The notes under the pieces are model-generated. The model was not told the origin of the DNA, did not search any database, and worked only from the letters and a program-made list of their open reading frames with translations. A stretch of DNA of 64,000 nt, taken from assembly GCA_964016885.1 (NCBI GenBank), contig OZ024748.1:8184001-8248000 (forward strand). The letters are read 5' to 3'. Shown piece by piece: positions 23,761 through 49,856 of the stretch. This stretch comes from Eledone cirrhosa (lineage: Eukaryota). The translations under genes were made by a program, and so were the position numbers. Each line of letters opens with the position of its first letter. Within the stretch, counting starts at the first letter, position 1.

Positions 23761-24867
23761 CTGTCAATAGTAGAGGAGGATATCTGCAGGGGTTGGGACG
23801 GGTGTATGCTTTCTGTATCTGAAATAAAGGTTCATATGGTCGCCTGGAAATGTGTTAATTCATACTTGTATTTTGGGTTGTTCCATTTCAGCCTGTTCAC
23901 AATGAATGAAAATCTCCCAGAACAGAAAAGATAGTAGCAGTAGCTGTTAGCAGTTATTGCCACAGATAGTGGGTATCTTTGTATTGTTGTTGTTTGATTG
24001 GTCTAAAATGGTAAGGTGGTATGTGGGAGGGAAACGGAAAGGTAAATGAGTGCTTCAGCTGACTAGAATCTTAGAACAAACTAAAAATGAAATAAATAAA
24101 TAGCCATTGTTGATAGAGTATATGGGATAGGATAGATCTGTTGTTTATAGTAAGCTGTGTTCATTTCATGAACATTTATTTAAAGAAAAAATTAGCAGGT
24201 ATCATCTGATGTATTTTTATTTTTTAATGATTCCTTGATTTTCTAAGTTATGTAAATACAGAGCAGGGAGAAATAGTTTAACACGAATTCTTAGGTAATT
24301 CTAGTTAAAAACCAGCTAATTACTTGTTCTAAGATTGTGTGATTACTTTGGAAATAAGCAAAAATAATTAGCAGTAATGAATAATTGATAGTTTAAGGCT
24401 TATTATATTCACAAATTGTAAAAATTAAACTGCAAAATAGATTAAACCAGGTGTAGAGAACAGGAGAGTTATGTAAGCTGAAAATTGATTTATAAACTGT
24501 CACTATAGTGTGTTATGCAGTGAGCGGAGGTTAGATTAAGAAAGACATTTAAACACGAGAGATATTGAACTAGTTTATACTATTGAGAGTGATTTGTTAT
24601 TTATGACTAACATCGACTGTAACAAAAGATTTACCAACTGTCACAATTAAAACACTGAAAGAGATTATAAATACTTTAAAACATTTTTCAGCTTTTTATT
24701 AACAAATACAACTACATTGAGAATAAAATCTTCATTTCTTTCAGAAAATAATTGTATGTTTTATAAATATATTGAGTTTACTTTTTATATCTTTTTTTTT
24801 TTCTGAAGTTATTAAATCTCACATGGTAATAAATTCTGAGCTTTTCAATCTTAATGTGTGAAGATCA

Positions 24868-25011
24868 TTATCTCTTGAATGGTGATCTAGAAGAATTGTC
24901 GTAAAGCTGTCTGGTGCTGAATAGTGAAACACCAAAACCGAAGAGAGATAAGAAAATAGCAGCTGGTACGATGAACTGGTCAACTTTACTACTGCTCGTC
25001 GAACCCTCCGC
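24868..25011 (-). CDS. 80-aa putative mitochondrial single-pass microprotein, last coding exon (AEGSTSSSKVDQFIVPAAIFLSLFGFGVSLFSTRQLYDNSSRSPFKR*)
   Basis: Acceptor tttatacag|, phase 0 matching the upstream exon, ~21-aa hydrophobic segment, TAA at 24870-24868, AATAAA at ~24700. Confidence 0.7.
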   Translation of the reverse strand, partial: AEGSTSSSKVDQFIVPAAIFLSLFGFGVSLFSTRQLYDNSSRSPFKR

Positions 25012-25789
25012 CTGTATAAAAAAAATTACATTTAGTTAAGAGAAAACCAAACAATTTTTAAATTTACAGTCAATATCACATAATTACCAACATTACTGCA
25101 TATAAGTGACTTTCCATTATCCCTCTAGCATATAACAATAGTCAACTGAAGAATGAACCTTGTACCACAACAGAGATAAGCCAACAGTTCTATATATTAG
25201 CACTATTAGAAGTCTACTTTTCTATTGTAAACACTGACAGATGTGGAACAATTTTTACTGATTTTTTTTTTTTTTTTTTAAATGGTCTCTGGCATTTATT
25301 TTATTTCACATCTAAATTTATAATTATTTTGTTATCAAGGACAGCAGCAGATTGGTAGAATTGTCAAAACATTGGATAACATGCTTTGGGCATATATGAT
25401 AGTTACAGCCTTTTATGTTCTGAGTTCAAATCCCACCAAAGTTAACTTTGCCTTCAGCCTTGCAGGATCGACTTTCCCCTTCCCTTCAAATTGGTGCAAT
25501 TTATATCAATTCTCCATCCTATAATTTTGGTAAACTTGGATACTGGCATATTTGTTAAAGAAAACTATTTTTGCAGCCAGATGAGAAAGATGAAAACGGT
25601 TGCTGTTTAGTCTCAAATTAGCCTAAAGAAACAAGAATTATGGTTGAAGCCATTCCTGATTATCCTATCTTTTTGAATACCTTAGACTATATTGTCCCAC
25701 ATTTCCATCCATTTTCTATACAATAGGGTGAATTTAAAACCAAGAGATTTAAAAACAAAAGGAAAACTGTTAATCTTTTCAACACTGAC

Positions 25790-25888
25790 CTGTGATATTT
25801 TTAATAATGGCAGAGCTGTTCGTGAAAACGATCGATAGAGAATGGAGCTTTTTCTCATCAACATGTTTGATCCCATTGCAGAAGCCAT
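25790..25888 (-). CDS. 80-aa putative mitochondrial microprotein, first coding exon (MASAMGSNMLMRKSSILYRSFSRTALPLLKISQ)
   Basis: Acceptor ttctattacag| with exon starting 25899, ATG at 25888, donor CAG|gtcagt; R/S/L-rich with no acidic residues, like a presequence. Confidence 0.7.
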
Positions 25889-26224
25889 TGAAGATATACC
25901 TGTAATAGAAATAAAACAACTGAATTTGAAGATTTTATAGCAATTTATTTCTGACAAGGAATATATTTTATAACAATATTGAATAAATACCAAATACGCA
26001 GGGTGTTTCTCCAGGGTGGCAATTGGTGACTAAACAGGCAACCCCACCAAGCTTAGTGAGGAGGGTGATTTTAGGACACCCTGCAGGATGAAAAATTGAT
26101 CCTGTTGAAGGATCAAGGAACTCAGGAGAATCAACAGTCATCCAATAGCATGTAAAAAGAAAAAAACCTACAGACATGCACTTGATAAGTCTTGTTGCTG
26201 AGTGCTGCACAGTAGGAAGGAAAA

Positions 26225-26800
26225 TCAGTGCTGCAAAGACTGAGACACTAGACTTCTATAAATGGAGGTTCTACTGAAGCAGATGGAGAAATTCAAGTAT
26301 CTCAGGGCTGTGTTCACAAGTGATGGAAGGCAGGAAACTGAATTAAGTGCAAGAATTGCAGGAGCTGGTGTAGTAATCTGCCAGCATCAACATTCAGTAA
26401 TCAGAAGGAAGGTAAGAATAAAAGCCGAACACACTATCTTTTAATTCAGTATTTGTGCCAACCCTTACCTATGGTAATGAATTTTGGGTAATAAGCGAAA
26501 GTATACAATTGCGTCAGGATTCCAATGAAGGATCTTTGGCATAATGCGACTCAGTGCTTAGCTCAAAGATCAGAGTCACTCCAGGTAAAGCCACTACTTC
26601 TAACAGAGCTCATAGCTTCGATTTTACAGACAAAAACCAACCGACAAGAGACCTAGAGGTAGACCCTGAGCAAGATGGTTGGATAACATCCCTGAGCTCA
26701 GCTAGTATCACTTGTAGATCCAGCTGGATCAATTGGACGGTTGCTTCTGACGGGACCCCTCTGAAATGAGTGTTTGAGGACTCTACTCCACGACTTACTT
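26225..26800 (+). mobile_element. Degenerate RTE-type LINE 3' fragment
   Basis: KFKYLRAVFTSDGRQETELSARI motif; frameshifted. Confidence 0.65.
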
Positions 26801-27293
26801 TTAATTCTAAATAATAATAAATAAAATAAAAATAGAACAAGATTTTCCTGACATTTGTACATTATTCTATGTACTATACATGCACCTTTGATGAGTTGTA
26901 GTGCACCTGAGCACTGTACACAATAATTTCATTATTATTATATGTCGATTTGACAGAAATATTTGGTGATAATTTAAAATAAAAACAATTCTAAATGAGG
27001 CAAAAATGGAAAAATTTTATTATTTTTGTCGAATGAATTCTATAGCATGGAACACCTTACAATAGTTTTAACCCTTTCAATACCAAACTGCCTTAAAAAC
27101 AGGTCCTGATTCTTCAATACAAAACTCTGTTTTCGAGCGCTTATCTAAATACTTTACGTCATAATTTTGTTATGCTCCAAATAGCAACTTAATTATGAGA
27201 AAGATATGCCATTACTAAACCTCTCCAATTTTCTGTTTAAAACATTCATTATATAAGGAAGGAGATGTGAAAAGGAATAAAAGAGTAACATAC

Positions 27294-27535
27294 TTAATCC
27301 AGCCAGGATTAACACATCCACGTGGAGTCAAGTATGTTACAAACATTGAAATCCAGTCTCTCTTCTAATAGGAAGAGGCTACGTAGCCGGTAACTGTAAA
27401 ATGGATTCCAAGACTATGTAGCTGGTAAGAGTGTCAGACACCATGTTTGTCTACTTTGTAAGGACCGGCTACGTAGCCTATTACCTTGTAATATATTTCG
27501 GAAATCCTAAGAAGGATCACCAATGCTGCCTTTCT
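27294..27535 (-). other. 5'UTR exon of the mitochondrial microprotein gene with two candidate donors (exon ends 27485 or 27294)
   Basis: Acceptor ttttcttcag|; donors AAG|gtaata and TAA|gtatgt. Confidence 0.5.
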
Positions 27536-28599
27536 CTGAAGAAAATAAATAACAAACATCGTAATTCGATGTTTGTTTAATTTAGTAATGAAAGGAAACA
27601 GTCTGAATTATTTACTACTTCACAAAACAACTGATAAGATGTTTTTATTTATTTACTCATTATATATATATATAAGGATGAGTATTTAGACTTTATTTTA
27701 TTTTGAGTTAAGGCTCTATTGATTTTTCCCTGGATTTCACAAAATTATGTGGGTGAATCTATGTCTTGATTCTTTTTGAATTGAGTTTGAATTATTTTCC
27801 CACATTTTACGTTAACTATTTTTCCATTTTGACGTTATAGTCACTTATATATTATGAAATACTGTTAGCTTCACGCTCACAATAATTTCTATACTTTTCA
27901 TATATATATATGGCTTTCTGCTACAATATTTTCTGTACCTTTCATTTATACATATATATATATATATACACACATAGAAGCAAACACATTTACAAATTGG
28001 GTCGTTAAATTTTTGTACTGAATTCTTGGTAGGCTAAAATAGTTTGGACAATATCAAATTATTTAACGTTATTAAATTTAAAACAAAATAATTTAACAGA
28101 TAAACATGTTGGCCCGCGTCACTGAAAATATACTAAAATTACTGAAGAAAATAAATAACTATTTTAAAAGATAGTTGGCAATGAATATATATTTTGTACG
28201 ATATAGTTCTGTTATAAGAAATGGTAATATAGTCGATCAATTTAACGGCTAGAATATTGGTAGTAAATATAATCGATATTGAAATATGGAGTGATAGGTT
28301 TTGTGACAGAATATTTGGTATGTTCTTCCGAAAGAATTGAGAGCGATATATATTATTGTTTATACATTTGTAATGTTATTTATACAACTGTGAATAAAAT
28401 ATTTATTTATCAATAAGACAGAACGGGGGTAGCAGTTTCTGAGTTAATGAACCAAACACCTTTTAATATTTGGAATGATTTTAATCACCACAGGTCTACA
28501 TAAAAGATAGGCCGTGTTTTAAACTATTAAGTCGGTTCCAAAAATGTATACATATATTTATTAGAATGCTGCTGAAGTGTGTATACATATTTTTTCGGA

Positions 28600-28810
28600 C
28601 ACTAGGATAGAACTAAATTGGAACTGATTAGATCATTACTCAACAGAGTACACGATACTCGGGGTAGTAGAGTATGCTTATATTATAAAGAGTCGAGACC
28701 CGACGGCTGAGCTCTTACCGTTTCAACAGCTAGTTCCAGCTGGAATTAACTGTTGAAACGGCAAGAGCTCAGCCGTCTGGTCCCGACTCTTTATAATATA
28801 TATATATATA
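28600..28810. mobile_element. Penelope-like palindromic element (118-bp hairpin 28681-28798) next to (TA)n
   Basis: Near-perfect inverted repeat; homologous to 36741-36935 in the opposite orientation. Confidence 0.7.
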
Positions 28811-29224
28811 TAAAACTAGAAACTATGCAAAATATCTCCAAAATTCCTTAAATAACACCAATATACATAGACGCGATATTGTATATAAAACCATATCAAA
28901 GCATATGATACTATATAAAACTATATCTAACCACATAAAACAATATAAAAGCATATAAAACTATATCTAACCACATAAAACAATATAAAGGCATATAAAA
29001 CTATATGTAACCATGTGGAGTATTGATTTCCTCAAAGGTGCCCGGAACGATTTGTAAGGTGAAGGTCAGGAGACGACGATAACCGTTGATATACAGTGTT
29101 AGAAATGTCATTTAAGATTAAACCATACGTTGTTAATTACCTGATACAATATAAATACTTAATAAGATGTAGTTAATTAATTATATTAATTATATACAGG
29201 TAAAATAATAAGGAAATAACTTAC

Positions 29225-29280
29225 TACGCTGCTGCTGCTGGAAACGAGCGGCTCTGTTGATGTTTCTTACAGAGAAAGCT
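29225..29280 (-). other. Probable first non-coding exon of the mitochondrial microprotein gene
   Basis: Donor GTA|gtaagt at 29224, CpG-containing, directly downstream of the NRF1 motif; TSS approximate. Confidence 0.5.
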
Positions 29281-29282
29281 CT

Positions 29283-29294
29283 GGCGCATGCGCA
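29283..29294. promoter_or_regulatory. NRF1-type palindrome (TGCGCATGCGCC on minus strand)
   Basis: Matches the YGCGCAYGCGC consensus in otherwise CpG-poor DNA. Confidence 0.65.
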
Positions 29295-29399
29295 CAATAT
29301 TCATACATACGTACACACATACACATAGTCACACACACACATATATATATACATACAACACATTCACATATATGTAACAAAACGTCAGAGTGGCAGAAT

Positions 29400-30170
29400 G
29401 TACCCTGGGGGTAGGACATTACTTTGGGTAACCAGCCTGACAGGGTGACCTTGTGGTAGAACATTACTGTGAATAAAACCATTAAGGCCAAGAGACAATA
29501 AAGTAGCAGCCTGACAGAGGGTGCCCTGGGGGTAGAACATTACTGTAGAACCATTAAGGCCAAGAGACAGCAAAGTAGCAGCCTGATAGATGGTGACCTT
29601 GTGGTAGGACATAACTCTAGATAGAGCCCCTAGGGTCAAGAAACAGCAAAGTAGCAGTCTGATAGATGGTGACCTTGTGGTAGGACATTACTCTAGATAG
29701 AGCCACTAGGGCCAAGAAACAGCAAAGTAGCAGTCTGATAGATGGTGACCTTGTGGTAGGACATAACTCTAGATAGAGCCACTAGGGCCAAGAAACAGCA
29801 AAGTAGCAGTCTGATAGATGGTGACCTTGTGGTAGGACATTACTATAGATAGAGCCACTAGGGCCAAGAAACAGCAAAGTAGCAGTCTGATAGATGGTGA
29901 CCTTGTGGTAGGACATAACTCTAGATAGAGCCACTAGGGCCAAGAAACAGCAAAGTAGCAGTCTGATAGATGGTGACCTTGTGGTAGGACATTACTATAG
30001 ATAGAGCCCCTAGGGTCAAAAGACAGCAAAGTAGCAGCCTGACAGAAGGTGCTCTGAGGGTATGACATTACTGTAGATAGAGCTTTTAAGGCCAAGAGAC
30101 AAAGTAGCAGCCTGACAGAAGGTGCCCTGGGGGTAGAACGTTACTGTAGCGCCATTAAGGCCAAGAAACA
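29400..30170. repeat. 76-bp minisatellite, ~10 units
   Basis: AGAGCCACTAGGGCCAAGAAAC recurs at 29699, 29775, 29851 and 29927. Confidence 0.95.
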
Positions 30171-31269
30171 GGCACGGAAAGACTGGATAAATAAAGGCAG
30201 CAAAGATTAATACCAAAGAAGAGAAACTAGACAACAGGTCAAAGAGGCTGGAAGCAGAAGGTTTACCAATGTTCTGCAATGTGAGAAGTGAGAATCAAAG
30301 ACATGAGGTGTTTTATCCAGTGCATTACTGGTACTTTATTCTATCGACCCCGTAAGGATGAAAGGCAAAGTCAACCTCGGCAAAAAAATAATGGAGCAAG
30401 GGAGGTAACCTACTTTCGGTCATAACACAAACGTTACGACTTCTCTCAGAAGTTTTCTACGGTATGTTTATAAACGTGGAATTTCTGTTTTTATTTTTCA
30501 AATATATATTCTGTTTCACATATATTTTTCGCAACCACTCCATACCGTTAGTTAAATAGCAAATCTTAAATATGCTCTGGACAAGATGACAAAAACGATG
30601 TGACAAAGAACAGCCAGCGATATCTGTTGTACCAGCCACTGCACCTGATAAACCTCGTTCTTTGTGCCAACAAGTTGGCAGAGGAGAGCGGTATTTAGGA
30701 ACCAACAACATGGGAAAACTCATCAGTAATATATTTTGTCGTTAATGACTGGTATTTATTTTTTATCTATTGTTTTTTTTTTTGCAGGAGTAACTCTTTG
30801 AATAATGGTCGAAACTATAAAGTTTGCATCCTAAACTAATTCACTTCCTATGTCACTTTCCTGACATTTGTACTTTATTCTTGCATGCACATTTGATGAG
30901 TTGTAGTGCACCTGAGCACTGTACACAATACTTTCATTATTATTATTATAATTGTCCTAACACTAAGGTCAAGTTTTAGGAGGGGTGGAAACCATTGTGT
31001 CCAGTGTAATACGATCATATGAAGCAGAGGTGTTTTGGTGTTATTCAATCTGTGGCTAACATTTGAAACTGTACCAATTGTACCAATCCATTTCTTGGCG
31101 GCACCTGTTTAGCTTCTGATAATAATATTCTCAGTATAAATATATAAAGCTAAGTTTATTATGTAACAACAGTCAGGTAATGTTTACTATTACTTAGTGA
31201 ATACTAACAGAAGTAGTTGTTTAGAGTTGATAGTTTTAACATGCTTGGAATAACTAGGACGGATATAAT

Positions 31270-34980: not shown

Positions 34981-36083
34981 ATAGTTACTCACCAAGCAGA
35001 CAAAAGGACATACACAAAGAAAATGAAGGATAGAAGTAGAGAGATTTAAAATTACAGAAATAAATCTATCATTTTTTCATAGATATATTTCTACACTAGT
35101 ATGTTCATAATAAACAAGAGGACATCATCATCATCATCGTTTAACATACATTTTCCATACTAGCATGGGTAGGACGGGCTGTCCCTTTGTGAGAGATCAG
35201 GTCAGAGGGCCATGTTTCACTCACATAGAACTGATTTAGGCTTGGTTTCTACAGACGGATGCCCTTCCTAATGCCAACCACATTTATAGGACAGATCATG
35301 AAATTTAGTGGTACATTTTATAAATCTATACTGTTTTAAAAAAATAGAGTATCTAATTACTAGAGGTTACTAGAGTGATTATGAATTAGAAGATTATTAG
35401 AGGTGTGAAGGGTTATATAGTTAACAGGCTGCATATTACTAAGACTTTAAGATACTATAAACTATAGGTTACACAACTTCTGTAACAAACATATCACAAT
35501 CACTTGGGTATCAATAAATATGACCAATATCAAGGATTGTGGTTGGAAATGTCACAAAAACTATGAATTAAACAAATGATGCAACCAAAATTCCTTAAAT
35601 TCTAAAAAAATCTATTTTCATTATGAAAAATTACTTCAACATCTTTTTTCTAATACTTAATTTAACAATCTATAACAAATATTTATAGATTAATGTTATA
35701 ATTTATTGATTAATGTTATGAAAGTACTTTAAGAGTATGTTAAAGAAGAGTATTATTTTAAAGTAATGAATATTGGCTTAGAAGTTATTTTAAAGTAGAT
35801 TAATGTGAGAGTTTGTCTTAAGATGACTATAGTAAACTTCAATTGGTACAGAACAAATTACAACTATTTCAAATTTCAATAATTCAAAACAAAGGGATTT
35901 TTTCTTCATATTTTTTTTTAACTTGCTTTTTCCTTAAAAAGAAAAAATAGTAAACCTGATCACAGAATATGAATTGTTTTTTAAAACAGCCCCAAATCAG
36001 AATCAAATCTTGAAAAAGAATTAACTTCCAAGATTTCATCTTATAAGTGTCTTTCTTGTCGGATGTTTCCATGAGGCAAACAC

Positions 36084-36143
36084 TTAGCTTCGTATGCTTT
36101 CACGAAACTCCCGAAGTACTCGTTCTTCCAAATTAAAGTCATA
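36084..36143 (-). CDS. UMA-domain microprotein, last coding exon (YDFNLEERVLREFRESIRS*)
   Basis: Acceptor ttttttcag|; YDF.LE..VL is the UMA C-terminal motif of UBAP1/UMAD1; TAA at 36086-36084. Confidence 0.8.
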   Translation of the reverse strand, partial: YDFNLEERVLREFRESIRS

Positions 36144-36559
36144 CTGAAAAAAAAACAAAGAATAAACACGTGAAATGAAGCAGAGAACAATTTATTTAAC
36201 AGTAAAATAGATCAGGAATGAACCAAACCTCTACAGTTAGGGTATCCAGGGTTCCTAAAGGTAACTTCTATCTCCTAATAACCAACAGTCCAACCAGGAT
36301 ACTTATCTATCTAATTAAAGTCTTTACTCTAATACTGTTTTAGATTATTTTAAATCCCTACCTAATCTCCTCAGTTTAGGCTACTACGATAAGACATACT
36401 TCAAGATTAAGAAATGTCTTATTTCTCACCTTGTTAACGTCAAAGCAACCCGAAGCTGTTCAATAGTTTTAAAACATTCTAAATCTAAAAATAATGAACC
36501 ACAAGAAGCAACATAGATTAAAATTCTCTGTAAAATAAATTACAAATAAATAAACTTAC

Positions 36560-36613
36560 CTTGAATTTCTCCATAATCTTATTCCTGTCCAGCTTTATAT
36601 GAGGAACATTCAA
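36560..36613 (-). CDS. UMA-domain microprotein, coding exon 3 (LNVPHIKLDRNKIMEKFK)
   Basis: ttttcag| ... AAG|gtaagt; 54 nt, phase 0-0. Confidence 0.8.
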
Positions 36614-45135: not shown

Positions 45136-45552
45136 GTGAGTCAACATTTTAATTTTGGTTTATTTTTGCTGTTTAAAGTTCATCAAATTGAACCATTTCA
45201 ACAATTCTTTTCATATTGCTCCAGTATACTCAGCTGTAAATAAGTACCAGTAATAGCTGGGGGTTTAATCTTGCGATGGTTTAATCTGGCATCCTGTCCA
45301 GGGGGAAGTCTTGTACTCTCTGTTGCTTTATGCCATGAAACCGGGATAAGCACTGGTGTAATGAGCCTTCTGGCTTAAAACAGACTTTAACTCTGCGGTG
45401 GACTGGCTTCCTGGCCAGTAGGAGTCTTGTACTCTCAGGCTTAACGAGCCTCTGAGCTTGAGACAGACTTAGATGATTCAGTAGAAAAAAATTTAAATAA
45501 CACCATTTCTCTGTTTCTGTGATATGTTGAACTAATCTATTTCTAACATTAG

Positions 45553-45686
45553 ATCATGTAGAAACTCCAATAATACCCAGAACTGAAATATCCACTCTAC
45601 AACATGACACAACACAGGCACATGGAAGTTTGTTTGGTTGGTTTTCTGGAAGCAGTTTCGTTTCCCGTGTTGTTGAGAAGACTAAG
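45553..45686 (+). CDS. PRRC1: PRRC1 coding exon 5 (..GSLFGWFSGSSFVSRVVEKTK)
   Basis: Resembles the PRRC1 GIWGF...VLDKTK segment; donor AAG|gtaatt. Confidence 0.85.
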
Positions 45687-45843
45687 GTAATTTCATGTTT
45701 GTGTCATCATCACCACCATCATCATCATTACCATCATTATCATTTGTCCATTTTCCTTTCAAGGGATGGGCTCATTCTCAGTTCAGAGAAAGAAAACTTT
45801 TTTTATTTACTTAACATATTTCTATATATATTTCTTTCTACAG

Positions 45844-45898
45844 AGTTCTGTTGAAAGTGTGATTACAACTTTGGATCCTCAGATGAAAGAATATATAA
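45844..45898 (+). CDS. PRRC1: PRRC1 coding exon 6 (SSVESVITTLDPQMKEYI)
   Basis: SVES.ITTLDP.M..YI signature. Confidence 0.9.
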
Positions 45899-47003: not shown

Positions 47004-49856
47004 TCATCATCATCATCATCATTTTACGTCAGCTTTTCCTTGCTTGCAAGGGTGGGACGGGTCTTATTCAACACAGCATCTCTCCACTTGTCACGGTCCT
47101 TCGTCATATCCACCATGAGCTTCAGCGATCTGAGGTCTGTTCTCACCACCTCCGCCCATGTTTTTCGTGGTCTACCTCTACCACGTCTTCCTTCAACTGG
47201 CATTTCCTGGCACTTCTTCACCCATCGGTCATCCTCCATGCGCATCACATGTCCATACCACCTCAGTCTCCTCTCCTGTACACTACATTCTATCCCTCTC
47301 AGACACAGTTTCTCTCTCAACACATTCATGCTGGGTCGTTCACAACATTGACACTGCATATCCAACGGAGCATGCTTGCCTCATTTCTCTCCAGCCGTCG
47401 CATATCCTCTGCAGTTGCTGCCCATGTCTCACTACCATGCAGCATCGCGCTCCTCACACAGGCATCATATAACTGGCCTTTCGTACGCGGGGAGAAACCC
47501 TTCTTCATCAGCAGAGGAAGCAGCTCCCTAAACTTCTTCCAACCATCCTTATTCTAGATACTATGGCCTCGGAACACCCCCCTCCCATGCTAATCTGATC
47601 TCCTAGGTACCGGAAGCTATCCACCACTTCTATAGCACCCGCCTGCATTTGAAAAATGTGTCTATCAATGCGACTTTTACTATCTAATTTCCCTGTACAT
47701 CTACTGCATACATATTTCTCCCTACCTGTCAGTTTACCTGCTATCCCGCTACATCTCTTGTGTACCCAGGATCTGCATTGTGTGCATTTTATAGAATTTA
47801 TGCCAGTTCCTTTTCTGCATATTGAACATCGCCATTTCCCTGATGGAATCAGAGTTTTGTCTTCTTTTCTACTCATCAACACTTTTGTCTTAGCTAGGTT
47901 CACTCTCAGTCCTCTTGCTTCCAACTGCTGTTTCCATAGCCAGAATTTATTCTCTAGCTCCTCTACTGATTCTGCTATAAGAACCAGATCGTCAGCATAG
48001 AGAAGTTCCCATGGAAAGCCAGTCTTAAACTCCTCTGTTATGGCTTGGAGGACTATAATGAACAAGAGCGGGCTGAAGACCGAACCTTGATGTACTCCTA
48101 CCTGTATCTGGAACTCCTCACTAAACTCCATTCCTACCCTGACTTTACTGACAGTACCTCTGTACAAAGTTTGCACTGTCCTCACAAGCCGTTCCTCAAC
48201 ACCTAGTTTCCTTAGGGACCACCAGATGACAGATTGGGGTACCCTATCAAAGGCCTTCTCTGGGTCAACAAAGGCTAAGTATAGTGGCTTATTTTTCTCT
48301 AAGAACCTCTCTTGCAATTGTCTCACCAAGAAGAGGGCATCTGTTGTACTCTTCCCAGGCACAAAACCAAACTGTATCTCATCTAGTTTGACCCTTTCTC
48401 TAATTAGTTGTGCTAATATCCTTTCTGCCACTTTCATAACCTGATCCATCAGTTTTATACCCCCTATAATTGCTCCTCTCCAGAGCATCCCCTTTACCTT
48501 TGTAGCAATTTATGAGAATACTGCTGCACCAGTCTTTGGGTATGATACCACCATATATAGCCTGATTGATGATGCGTGCAACCAGTTTAGTGCCTACGTC
48601 CCCTGATGCCTTCAGCATCTCAGCAACTATTCCCGATGGTCCAGCAGCCTTACCATTTTTCATTTCTTTAATTGCCTCTTGGACCCTATATTCGTCAATC
48701 TCAATAGCTGGTCCCTCTGTTGGATCTACTGAAGGTAATTTCTCTCTCTCTAATTCGTTCTCCACATTCATCAGTGTCTCATAATGACATTTCCAGGCCT
48801 CCTTTTTCTGATCATTCGTGACATTAAGTACACCGACATCATTCCGGACACATTTATCTCCAACAACATCCTGATTTGCATTGACACATTGCCTTGCAAT
48901 GTGGAACACCGCACGCCTCTGATCTTCCCATCGCAGAACATTGGCAAACCTCCTACTCTCAGCCTCCCTGCATGCTAAGTACACCTGACGTCTAGCTTCT
49001 CTCTTAGAGGCTGTATATTCTTCCCTACTCCCACCCTTTTTCCAAGCCTTCCATGCTAGTCTTTTGTCTCTAATGGCCTTATCTACTGTGCTGTTCCACC
49101 ACCAGGTCACTCTGTCTGGTTGGAGCTCTGCTCCAGCCACAAGTTTCATCAGTAGCCTGCAGTAAGTTGTCACGTAAGAAATTCCAGTTATTATCTATGT
49201 CATACGTCTCTAAACCGTCTTCTTTTTCGTCATACACATCTTGAAGGGCTTTCCTAAATTTGTATTTTAGTGAAAGCTCTTTTAGCTTCCAGACCTTTCT
49301 TCTCCACACTTTCCTGTATGTCTCATTCCATCTCTTGCTTACTGAGATATCACTAATGACTAACCTATGCTGTGGGGTACATTCTTCCCCAGGGTATGCC
49401 TTGGTATTAGACACTATCTGCCTGTCCCGCTGCCTAACTAGTAAGAAGTCAATCTGGCTTATGTGCTCGCCAGATTTGTAGGTTATTAGGTGGTTGGCAG
49501 GTTTCTGGAAGTTTGTGTTGCAAATAGTCAGTGTACTTGCATCACAAAATTCAAGAAGTCTCAATCCTTCATTTCTTGAGCCGTAACCACGCCCACCATG
49601 TACCCCAGTGTAACCATCCTGGAGCTGTCCAACATGACCATTGAAGTCCCCTGCTAGCATAACGATGTCTCCGTCCTCTGTCATTGCGGTTGTTTGTAAA
49701 AGTTGTTCGTAAAAGCAGTCTTTCTCATCTTTGCCTAGGCCTGCTTGGGGAGCATAGGCAGAGATGATTGTCAGTAGTCTCCTGCCTACAATTAATCTAA
49801 GCTTTAATTATTCAATTACTAACTCGAACTACCTCTATTGTCTTATTGATCCATCT
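47004..49856 (-). mobile_element. 5'-truncated, frameshifted RTE-type LINE (APE endonuclease, reverse transcriptase, Cys-rich finger) in PRRC1 intron 6
   Basis: GDFNGHVG, SQIDFLLV, QHRLV (APE); QFGFVPGKSTTDA, GVHQGSVFSP, LYADD (RT); RLRWYGHVMRM; (TGA)n tail; reading frame split across several ORFs. Confidence 0.95.

What the first reader, a model, noticed from the sequence alone, without database searches (positions are those of the whole stretch)
24868..29294. Unannotated 80-aa mitochondrial membrane microprotein under an NRF1-type promoter
Seen: a four-exon model giving MASAMGSNMLMRKSSILYRSFSRTALPLLKISQ-AEGSTSSSKVDQFIVPAAIFLSLFGFGVSLFSTRQLYDNSSRSPFKR, with a presequence-like N-terminus, one TM helix and a short tail. 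GCGCATGCGC lies just upstream of exon 1. Established: NRF1 sites mark nuclear-encoded respiratory genes, and this layout is typical of small OXPHOS subunits. Inference (weak, from recalled sequences): the pattern VD-x9-L-x-L-x-G-x3-SL-aromatic resembles the COX7A helix, but the conserved PVHLKGG segment is absent. It may be a divergent or lineage-specific complex IV or supercomplex subunit.
Basis: partly seen in the sequence, partly recalled or inferred. Interest (0 to 1): 0.7.

Follow-up and report, generated by a model that had tools for sequence, protein, structure and literature searches.

The report
Octopus mitochondrial-type membrane microprotein
This is a real, spliced gene, conserved in octopuses and a more distant animal, for an 80-amino-acid protein of no known family that is predicted to be imported into mitochondria and anchored there by one membrane helix, likely as an extra helper of cytochrome c oxidase, although its ancestry could not be pinned down.

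Summary
The gene is real. The two coding exons (25888-25790, 25011-24868, minus strand) give 80 aa, and their junction is spliced in one public run. It is single-copy. Orthologs are annotated as uncharacterised in Octopus bimaculoides and O. vulgaris, and ~51%-identical forms occur in two unnamed assemblies. The basic N-terminus, an MPP/MIP-type cleavage motif and the single helix are all conserved. No Pfam or PDB match was found. COX7A descent is my best guess but is unproven: embedding neighbours and exon layout favour it, yet the COX7A matrix and linker motifs are missing. The genome has two ordinary COX7A genes and separate NDUFA4 and UQCR11 genes, so this is not a plain ortholog of those. 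The NRF1 argument fails: the word occurs over 10,000 times per strand, and 16 of 20 sampled copies lie in one repeat family. Exons 1-2 are unverified. Modest interest.

The parts
29284..29293 (.). GCGCATGCGC palindrome (NRF1-type word); possible promoter element, not diagnostic in this genome
   Evidence: CpG observed/expected about 1.0-1.1 over 27900-29400
29225..29290 (-). putative non-coding exon 1 (5' end approximate)
   Evidence: GTAAGT donor; low-depth unspliced X4 contig from 29248; junction not seen
27485..27535 (-). putative non-coding exon 2, 51 nt, with an in-frame stop ahead of the ATG
   Evidence: splice-site sequences; junction not seen
25790..25899 (-). exon 3: 11 nt of leader, ATG at 25888, residues 1-33 (predicted presequence and start of the mature chain)
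   Evidence: donor seen spliced; orthologous models change sequence at the same acceptor
25805..25834 (-). residues 19-28, RSFSRTALPL: matches the R-10 (MPP then MIP) cleavage consensus; conserved in all four orthologous sequences tested
   Evidence: consensus from PMC11626719 (passages)
24868..25011 (-). exon 4 coding part: residues 34-80 and TAA stop
   Evidence: 89% identical to the O. bimaculoides ortholog
24919..24975 (-). predicted transmembrane helix, residues 46-64
   Evidence: hydropathy; model helix 42-73, pLDDT 71-80 over residues 41-60
24670..24867 (-). 3' UTR with AATAAA at 24700-24695
   Evidence: X4 contig ends at 24670

Best explanation
The gene is spliced and encodes a conserved 80-residue protein that is predicted to be imported into mitochondria and anchored in the inner membrane by one helix, where it likely serves as an extra accessory subunit of cytochrome c oxidase, probably descended from a COX7A duplicate that lost the family's matrix motifs. 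Shown: gene, splice, single copy, conservation, one hydrophobic helix. Predicted from motifs: import by the basic N-terminus, cleavage by MPP after Ser20 (leaving 60 residues) and possibly by MIP after Leu28 (leaving 52), N-terminus in the matrix and tail in the intermembrane space. Inferred: that the helix takes the COX7A site on complex IV in some tissues or states, in place of one of the two ordinary COX7A proteins, and so tunes assembly, dimer or supercomplex formation. My odds per step: real protein 0.97, mitochondrial inner membrane 0.8, COX7A-derived complex IV subunit 0.35.
For: Splice and polyadenylation signal. Conservation is weak in residues 1-18 (6-8 of 18) and strong in 19-33 (15/15 in two octopuses, 11/15 in the distant forms) and in the helix (17/21, 13/21), as expected for a drifting presequence ahead of a constrained chain. 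The R-10 motif and a net charge of +5 to +6 with no acidic residue are kept in 4 of 4 orthologs. In both ESM Atlas searches the ten best hits that carry a Pfam family share COX7a or its clan (scores shown 0.79-0.82, leads only). The D-to-D register is the best of 22 offsets against both local COX7A genes (8.5, next -4.8; shuffle p 0.008-0.07). Exon layout matches COX7A gene A: a phase-0 intron, then one exon with linker, helix, tail and stop. The intron in gene A falls after the position of bovine chain residue 13; here it falls 13 residues after the predicted MPP cut, and 60 residues compares with 59 for the bovine chain. Drosophila has three tissue-specific COX7A isoforms (PMC10569793, PMC7394922; passages).
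Against: No Pfam hit at E<=10, while the matching exons of both local COX7A genes hit PF02238. No PDB sequence hit. HHalign probability 0.2%. The V-x-[DE]-L-Q-x-x-F segment and the DG-LLVWQK-RG linker of both local COX7A genes are absent, the linker is 4 residues shorter and is poorly conserved (2/10 in the distant forms). The helix register scores no higher for COX7A (9.0, 8.0) than for NDUFA4 gene 1 (12.5) or UQCR11 (8.5), and the window's own sequence fits NDUFA4 better (7 and 6 of 26 identical) than COX7A (4 of 28). The top three Atlas hits without filter are not COX7A clusters (0.90, 0.88, 0.87). The ATG shares an exon with the pre-intron segment here, whereas both COX7A genes appear to start in a further upstream exon that I did not locate. 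The scored region was chosen after seeing the pattern.
Confidence: 0.35

Rival explanations
1. A mitochondrial inner-membrane microprotein that is not descended from a complex IV subunit: either a relative of the vertebrate ZNF593OS-type microproteins or a cephalopod-born one, acting as an assembly factor or regulator of some inner-membrane complex.
For: The best unfiltered Atlas hit is the 'ZNF593 opposite strand' cluster (69 aa, mostly chordates; 0.90, 203 of 256 features shared), followed by two unnamed clusters. No family hit anywhere. Only 3 proteins at E<=0.001 among 1.84 billion representatives.
Against: Atlas scores of 0.9 arise for 4-10 in 100 shuffled proteins. No ZNF593-like motif (recalled pattern) in the window or 100 kb either side. 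All ten best named neighbours share COX7a or its clan. I had no ZNF593OS sequence to align.
Confidence: 0.3
2. A divergent NDUFA4/COXFA4 (B12D) paralog that gained a presequence and lost its C-terminal half; still a complex IV modulator.
For: Highest single helix score (12.5 against L050); proline at the helix start and up to 7 of 26 identities.
Against: Second NDUFA4 gene scores only 3.8; shuffle p 0.04-0.10; no PF06522 hit; the DV motif after the helix in both local genes is absent; their exon starts two codons before the proline and ends after the helix, unlike here; two NDUFA4 proteins are already listed for O. bimaculoides.
Confidence: 0.12
3. A second, divergent COX8: the same size, presequence and single helix.
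For: Architecture fits (recalled for COX8). PF02285 finds no credible COX8 in this genome, and COX8 was not found in 31 bivalve transcriptomes (PMC8136519, passages).
Against: Dataset EV1 of PMC9346487 lists a different O. bimaculoides protein (A0A0L8GG18) as COX8, not our ortholog A0A0L8GN32. No PF02285 hit for our protein. The genome blank is weak, since COX7C was also not cleanly found this way.
Confidence: 0.1
4. A real single-pass protein of another membrane (ER, Golgi, outer mitochondrial membrane); the basic N-terminus is not a presequence.
For: No targeting predictor or experiment was run; residues 19-33 are more conserved than presequences usually are, so they may be a binding motif instead.
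Against: R-10 motif, no acidic residue in residues 1-33 in 5 of 5 sequences, amphipathic moment 0.5-0.6 over residues 10-31.
Confidence: 0.1
5. A chance frame in a non-coding transcript.
For: Short; no family; no proteomic evidence seen.
Against: Frame, start and stop region conserved at about 51% identity in the distant forms and 89% in exon 4 among octopuses; in-frame splice.
Confidence: 0.02

Closest known systems
Uncharacterised protein LOC106875771 (XP_014779518/9, UniProt A0A0L8GN32) of Octopus bimaculoides; CAI9734966 of O. vulgaris
   Same: Orthologs: 89% identical over exon 4, 15/15 over residues 19-33.
   Different: Database models carry 9-33 extra N-terminal residues that are not conserved in the window or in the distant forms; the conserved start is the M-A-S methionine. 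No function is assigned.
COX7A family (PF02238; bovine COX7A1, mouse COX7A2 and COX7A2L in PDB; two genes in this genome)
   Same: Size, predicted presequence, one helix with D-x9-L-x3-G-x3-S spacing, phase-0 intron before a linker-helix-tail exon.
   Different: No Pfam or profile hit; matrix segment and DG..V..K.G linker absent; linker 4 residues shorter.
NDUFA4/COXFA4 (B12D, PF06522; two genes in this genome)
   Same: Proline-started helix with up to 7 of 26 identities.
   Different: Has a presequence-like extension, lacks the post-helix DV motif and C-terminal half, different exon borders.
ZNF593OS-type microproteins (ESM Atlas cluster, chordates)
   Same: Nearest cluster by language-model features (0.90), similar size (69 aa).
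   Different: No sequence alignment could be made; no synteny with a ZNF593-like motif found; that family's function is not described in the papers searched (one paper, listing only).
COX8 (PF02285)
   Same: Recalled architecture: presequence, short matrix stretch, one helix, short tail.
   Different: No Pfam hit; another O. bimaculoides protein is already assigned as COX8.

Membership tests
COX7A (PF02238) | Pfam hit above the 22.1-bit cut-off | tested here: not met
   No hit at E<=10 for exon pieces, orthologs or trimmed orthologs; local COX7A exons score 29.9 and 15.9 bits
COX7A (PF02238) | Matrix segment V-x-[DE]-x-Q-x-x-F just before the intron | tested here: not met
   Present in both local genes; residues 21-33 here have none of the four positions
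COX7A (PF02238) | Linker DG-x-x-V-x-x-K-x-G before the helix aspartate | tested here: not met
   Present in bovine and local genes; here only E-G-x5-K in octopods, 4 residues shorter, not kept in the distant forms
COX7A (PF02238) | Helix register D-x9-L-x3-G-x3-S | tested here: inconclusive
   Present and best of 22 offsets, but unrelated helices score as well; HHalign 0.2%
COX7A (PF02238) | Phase-0 intron after chain residue 13, then linker and helix in one exon (as in the local genes) | tested here: inconclusive
   Phase 0 and same exon content; 10 codons before the aspartate here, 14 in both local genes
COX7A (PF02238) | Physical part of complex IV | not testable with these tools
   Needs complexome profiling or structure
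NDUFA4/B12D (PF06522) | Pfam hit | tested here: not met
   locus not among 8 genome matches
NDUFA4/B12D (PF06522) | DV motif and C-terminal domain after the helix | tested here: not met
   Both local genes have DV after the helix; absent here
NDUFA4/B12D (PF06522) | Proline-started helix pattern | tested here: inconclusive
   Scores 12.5 and 3.8; shuffle p 0.04-0.10
COX8 (PF02285) | Pfam hit | tested here: not met
   locus not among genome matches
COX8 (PF02285) | Direct alignment to protostome COX8 sequences | not tested
UQCR11 (PF08997) | Aromatic-T-D-W motif and being the genome's only candidate | tested here: not met
   A separate gene scores E 7e-11 and has FTDW; motif absent here
ZNF593OS-type microprotein | Sequence similarity | tested here: inconclusive
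   Embedding score 0.90 only; no alignment possible
Matrix-targeted precursor (MPP/MIP substrate) | Basic, acid-free N-terminus with R-X-(F/L/I)-X-X-(T/S/G)-X4 motif | tested here: met
   5 of 5 sequences; consensus from PMC11626719. Motif match only; import not shown
NRF1-marked respiratory gene | The word marks respiratory-gene promoters in this genome | tested here: not met
   13,200 + 12,434 copies; 16 of 20 sampled in one repeat family; none in 40 kb upstream of the helix exon of either COX7A gene, whose first exons were not located

The most novel reading that the evidence does not exclude
Coleoid cephalopods carry their own extra respiratory-chain subunit, a remodelled single-helix protein that no profile recognises, which swaps into complex IV or bridges supercomplexes and suits the high, oxygen-limited metabolism of these animals.
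Probability: 0.3. Interest if true: 0.6.

Novelty: new member of a known kind. Interest (0 to 1): 0.33.

Why it matters
Small respiratory-chain subunits are often missed in invertebrates: fly COX7B was recognised only in 2022 (PMC9346487), and seven subunits were not found in 31 bivalve transcriptomes (PMC8136519). The published list of octopus complex IV subunits does not include this protein. If it sits in complex IV it adds a lineage-specific subunit and gives a named target for the first cephalopod complexome study (one search found no such paper). If it does not, it remains one more conserved, uncharacterised membrane microprotein.

Tried and rejected
No run was listed as RNA by its record; not used as evidence either way. 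Pfam scans and PDB sequence searches were blank. The first homology search at 25-83 residues was blank because the orthologs are annotated longer; the profile search with A2 added no new relative among 323 candidates. The AlphaFold model is low-confidence (pLDDT 55.7, pTM 0.25); Foldseek gave 0 matches and VIA-align only generic helices, best Z 4.5, none at 5 or more: uninformative. MAFFT put the exon out of register with the COX7A exons. A first hunt for the upstream COX7A exons that required a Gln before the donor failed; the exons end in Phe-Leu. I first took the genome-wide abundance of the NRF1 word to mean a general promoter mark; sampling showed it is mostly repeat-borne. 'The missing UQCR11' is rejected. 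'The missing NDUFC1' has no support: best genome match E 0.31, our locus not listed, and an uncertain candidate exon scores -3.5 against the family. Synteny with ZNF593 was not found (recalled motif, 264 kb). By-eye resemblances to recalled COX8, COX7C, NDUFC1 and ZNF593OS helices were all easy to see, which is why none is counted as evidence. No complex prediction was run, as no suitable partner sequence was at hand. Searches for the accessions found 0 papers; COX7A plus octopus found 2.
Full report
Observation. The minus strand carries an 80-codon frame from ATG 25888 to 25790 and from 25011 to TAA 24868. Two of four listed runs were laid. In run X4 one contig (depth 328.7) skips exactly this 778-base intron with GT..AG ends, and ends at 24670, just past AATAAA at 24700; run X1 covers the intron evenly and shows no such joint. 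X4 is not on record as RNA, so 'transcript' is my inference from this pattern. With exon 2 as modelled, an in-frame stop precedes the ATG. The exon-4 peptide has one match in the 3.0-Gb genome.

Conservation. The protein has orthologs in Octopus bimaculoides (LOC106875771, A0A0L8GN32) and O. vulgaris (CAI9734966), both uncharacterised, and in two unnamed Logan proteins about 51% identical to the O. vulgaris form; that these are squid or cuttlefish is a guess from the distance. Only 3 of 1.84 billion representatives matched at E<=0.001, and a profile search added none. All forms align from the same M-A-S start; the longer database N-termini are not found in the window. Identity to the window by segment (octopuses; distant forms): residues 1-18, 6-7/18 and 8/18; 19-33, 15/15 and 11/15; 34-43, 9/10 and 2/10; 44-64, 17/21 and 13/21; 65-77, 13/13 and 8/13.

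Anatomy. Residues 1-33 hold 5-6 basic and no acidic residues in all five sequences, and residues 19-28 match the R-10 consensus for MPP then MIP cleavage (consensus read in passages of PMC11626719). One hydrophobic stretch spans 46-64. The model has one helix, 42-73, and low confidence elsewhere. Import into mitochondria and a single inner-membrane pass are therefore predicted, not shown.

Family. Pfam and PDB sequence searches were blank and fold searches uninformative. The ESM Atlas put a chordate 'ZNF593 opposite strand' cluster first (0.90), two unnamed clusters next, and COX7a as the family of the best named hits (0.79-0.82); all are leads. The genome has two ordinary COX7A genes on contig C6, two NDUFA4 genes and UQCR11. 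Dataset EV1 of PMC9346487 (that file read whole; four other supplements not read and may bear on this) lists for O. bimaculoides two COX7A, two COX7B, one COX7C, one COX8 and two NDUFA4, none of them our ortholog. So the protein is not the listed ortholog of any of these subunits.

Against the two local COX7A exons the D-to-D register is the best of 22 offsets (8.5, next -4.8), with shuffle p of 0.008 to 0.07 depending on the null. The same test gives 8.2 for the NDUFA4 pair (p 0.04-0.10), and single-gene scores are COX7A 9.0 and 8.0, NDUFA4 12.5 and 3.8, UQCR11 8.5, an uncertain NDUFC1 candidate -3.5. The pattern does not discriminate. HHalign gives 0.2%. The COX7A matrix segment and linker, clear in both local genes, are absent. 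What still favours COX7A is the Atlas neighbourhood and the exon layout: a phase-0 intron followed by one exon with linker, helix and tail, placed 13 residues after the predicted MPP cut, where gene A has its intron after the equivalent of bovine residue 13; the predicted 60-residue product compares with 59 for bovine COX7A1. The NDUFA4 exons start at the helix and end after it. Drosophila has three COX7A isoforms with tissue-specific expression (passages of PMC10569793 and PMC7394922), so a third, divergent copy has precedent.

Promoter. The palindrome is at 29284-29293, in a CpG-retaining stretch and near the start of the low-depth contig, so a promoter role is possible. It says nothing about respiration: the 11-mer occurs 13,200 and 12,434 times on the two strands (about 37 per strand expected from a first-order model). 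Of 20 copies picked from the first 100 listed, 16 are one dispersed repeat, 3 lie in alternating purine-pyrimidine tracts and 1 is unique; the window's copy is not that repeat but has such a tract on its 5' side. The exact 10-mer was not found in 40 kb upstream of the helix exon of either COX7A gene.

Verdict. A real, conserved, uncharacterised single-pass microprotein with a predicted mitochondrial presequence. I commit to a COX7A-derived complex IV accessory subunit at 0.35, with an unrelated inner-membrane microprotein close behind at 0.3; it should not be filed as a COX7A member, since three defining features were tested and not met. No paper names the ortholog accessions, and none joins cephalopod with complexome and supercomplex. 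PMC8136519 was read in passages; other papers were seen as listings only, except those cited above.

Noticed in passing
P0007; G000:C8:26765011-26765106 and 26932389-26932661 (L048, L046), L058-L059: One distant ortholog is an in-frame chimera: its first 112 residues match exons 1-2 of GLI/Ci (SYGHLS motif and C2H2 fingers follow in L058-L059; family named from recalled motifs) and join at the microprotein's phase-1 acceptor. This suggests the microprotein gene lies downstream of GLI exon 2 in that animal. Here the two genes are 18.7 Mb apart on C8 and on opposite strands. One contig only.
   Followed up: partly
L014:7963-8139 and L007:1510-1647 (G000:C6:1308362-1310399): The second COX7A gene has a long (59-residue) pre-intron exon that recalls the extended N-terminus of COX7A2L/SCAF1, the supercomplex factor that PMC10569793 says has no homolog in Drosophila. 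The likeness is from memory; a PDB search with that exon was blank.
   Followed up: partly
   Followed up: yes
G000:C1, L085-L104: A dispersed repeat family carries a perfect TGCGCATGCGC in 16 of 20 sampled sites and may spread thousands of NRF1-type words through the genome.
   Followed up: partly
window 36000-36600, minus strand: Last exons of an upstream gene on the same strand, ending YDFNLEERVLRE...; resembles a UMA-domain protein (UMAD1/UBAP1) by recall.
   Followed up: no
window 29420-30140: A tandem array with a unit of about 60 bases lies just upstream of the palindrome.
   Followed up: no
window 30560-30730, plus strand: An open stretch of about 45 codons ending at a GT donor, followed by a good acceptor near 30790; possibly a divergent transcript about 1.3 kb from the palindrome.
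   Followed up: no
L023 (G000:C2:195996390-195996467, minus): A weak PF15088 match (E 3.65) that ends in a stop and could be a divergent NDUFC1 exon or chance.
   Followed up: no
window 47024-49807, minus strand: Broken LINE-type element with endonuclease-like and reverse-transcriptase-like frames (named by recall).
   Followed up: no
window 45531-45854, plus strand: Exon reading GSLFGWFSGSSFVSRVVEKTK, PRRC1-like by recall.
   Followed up: no
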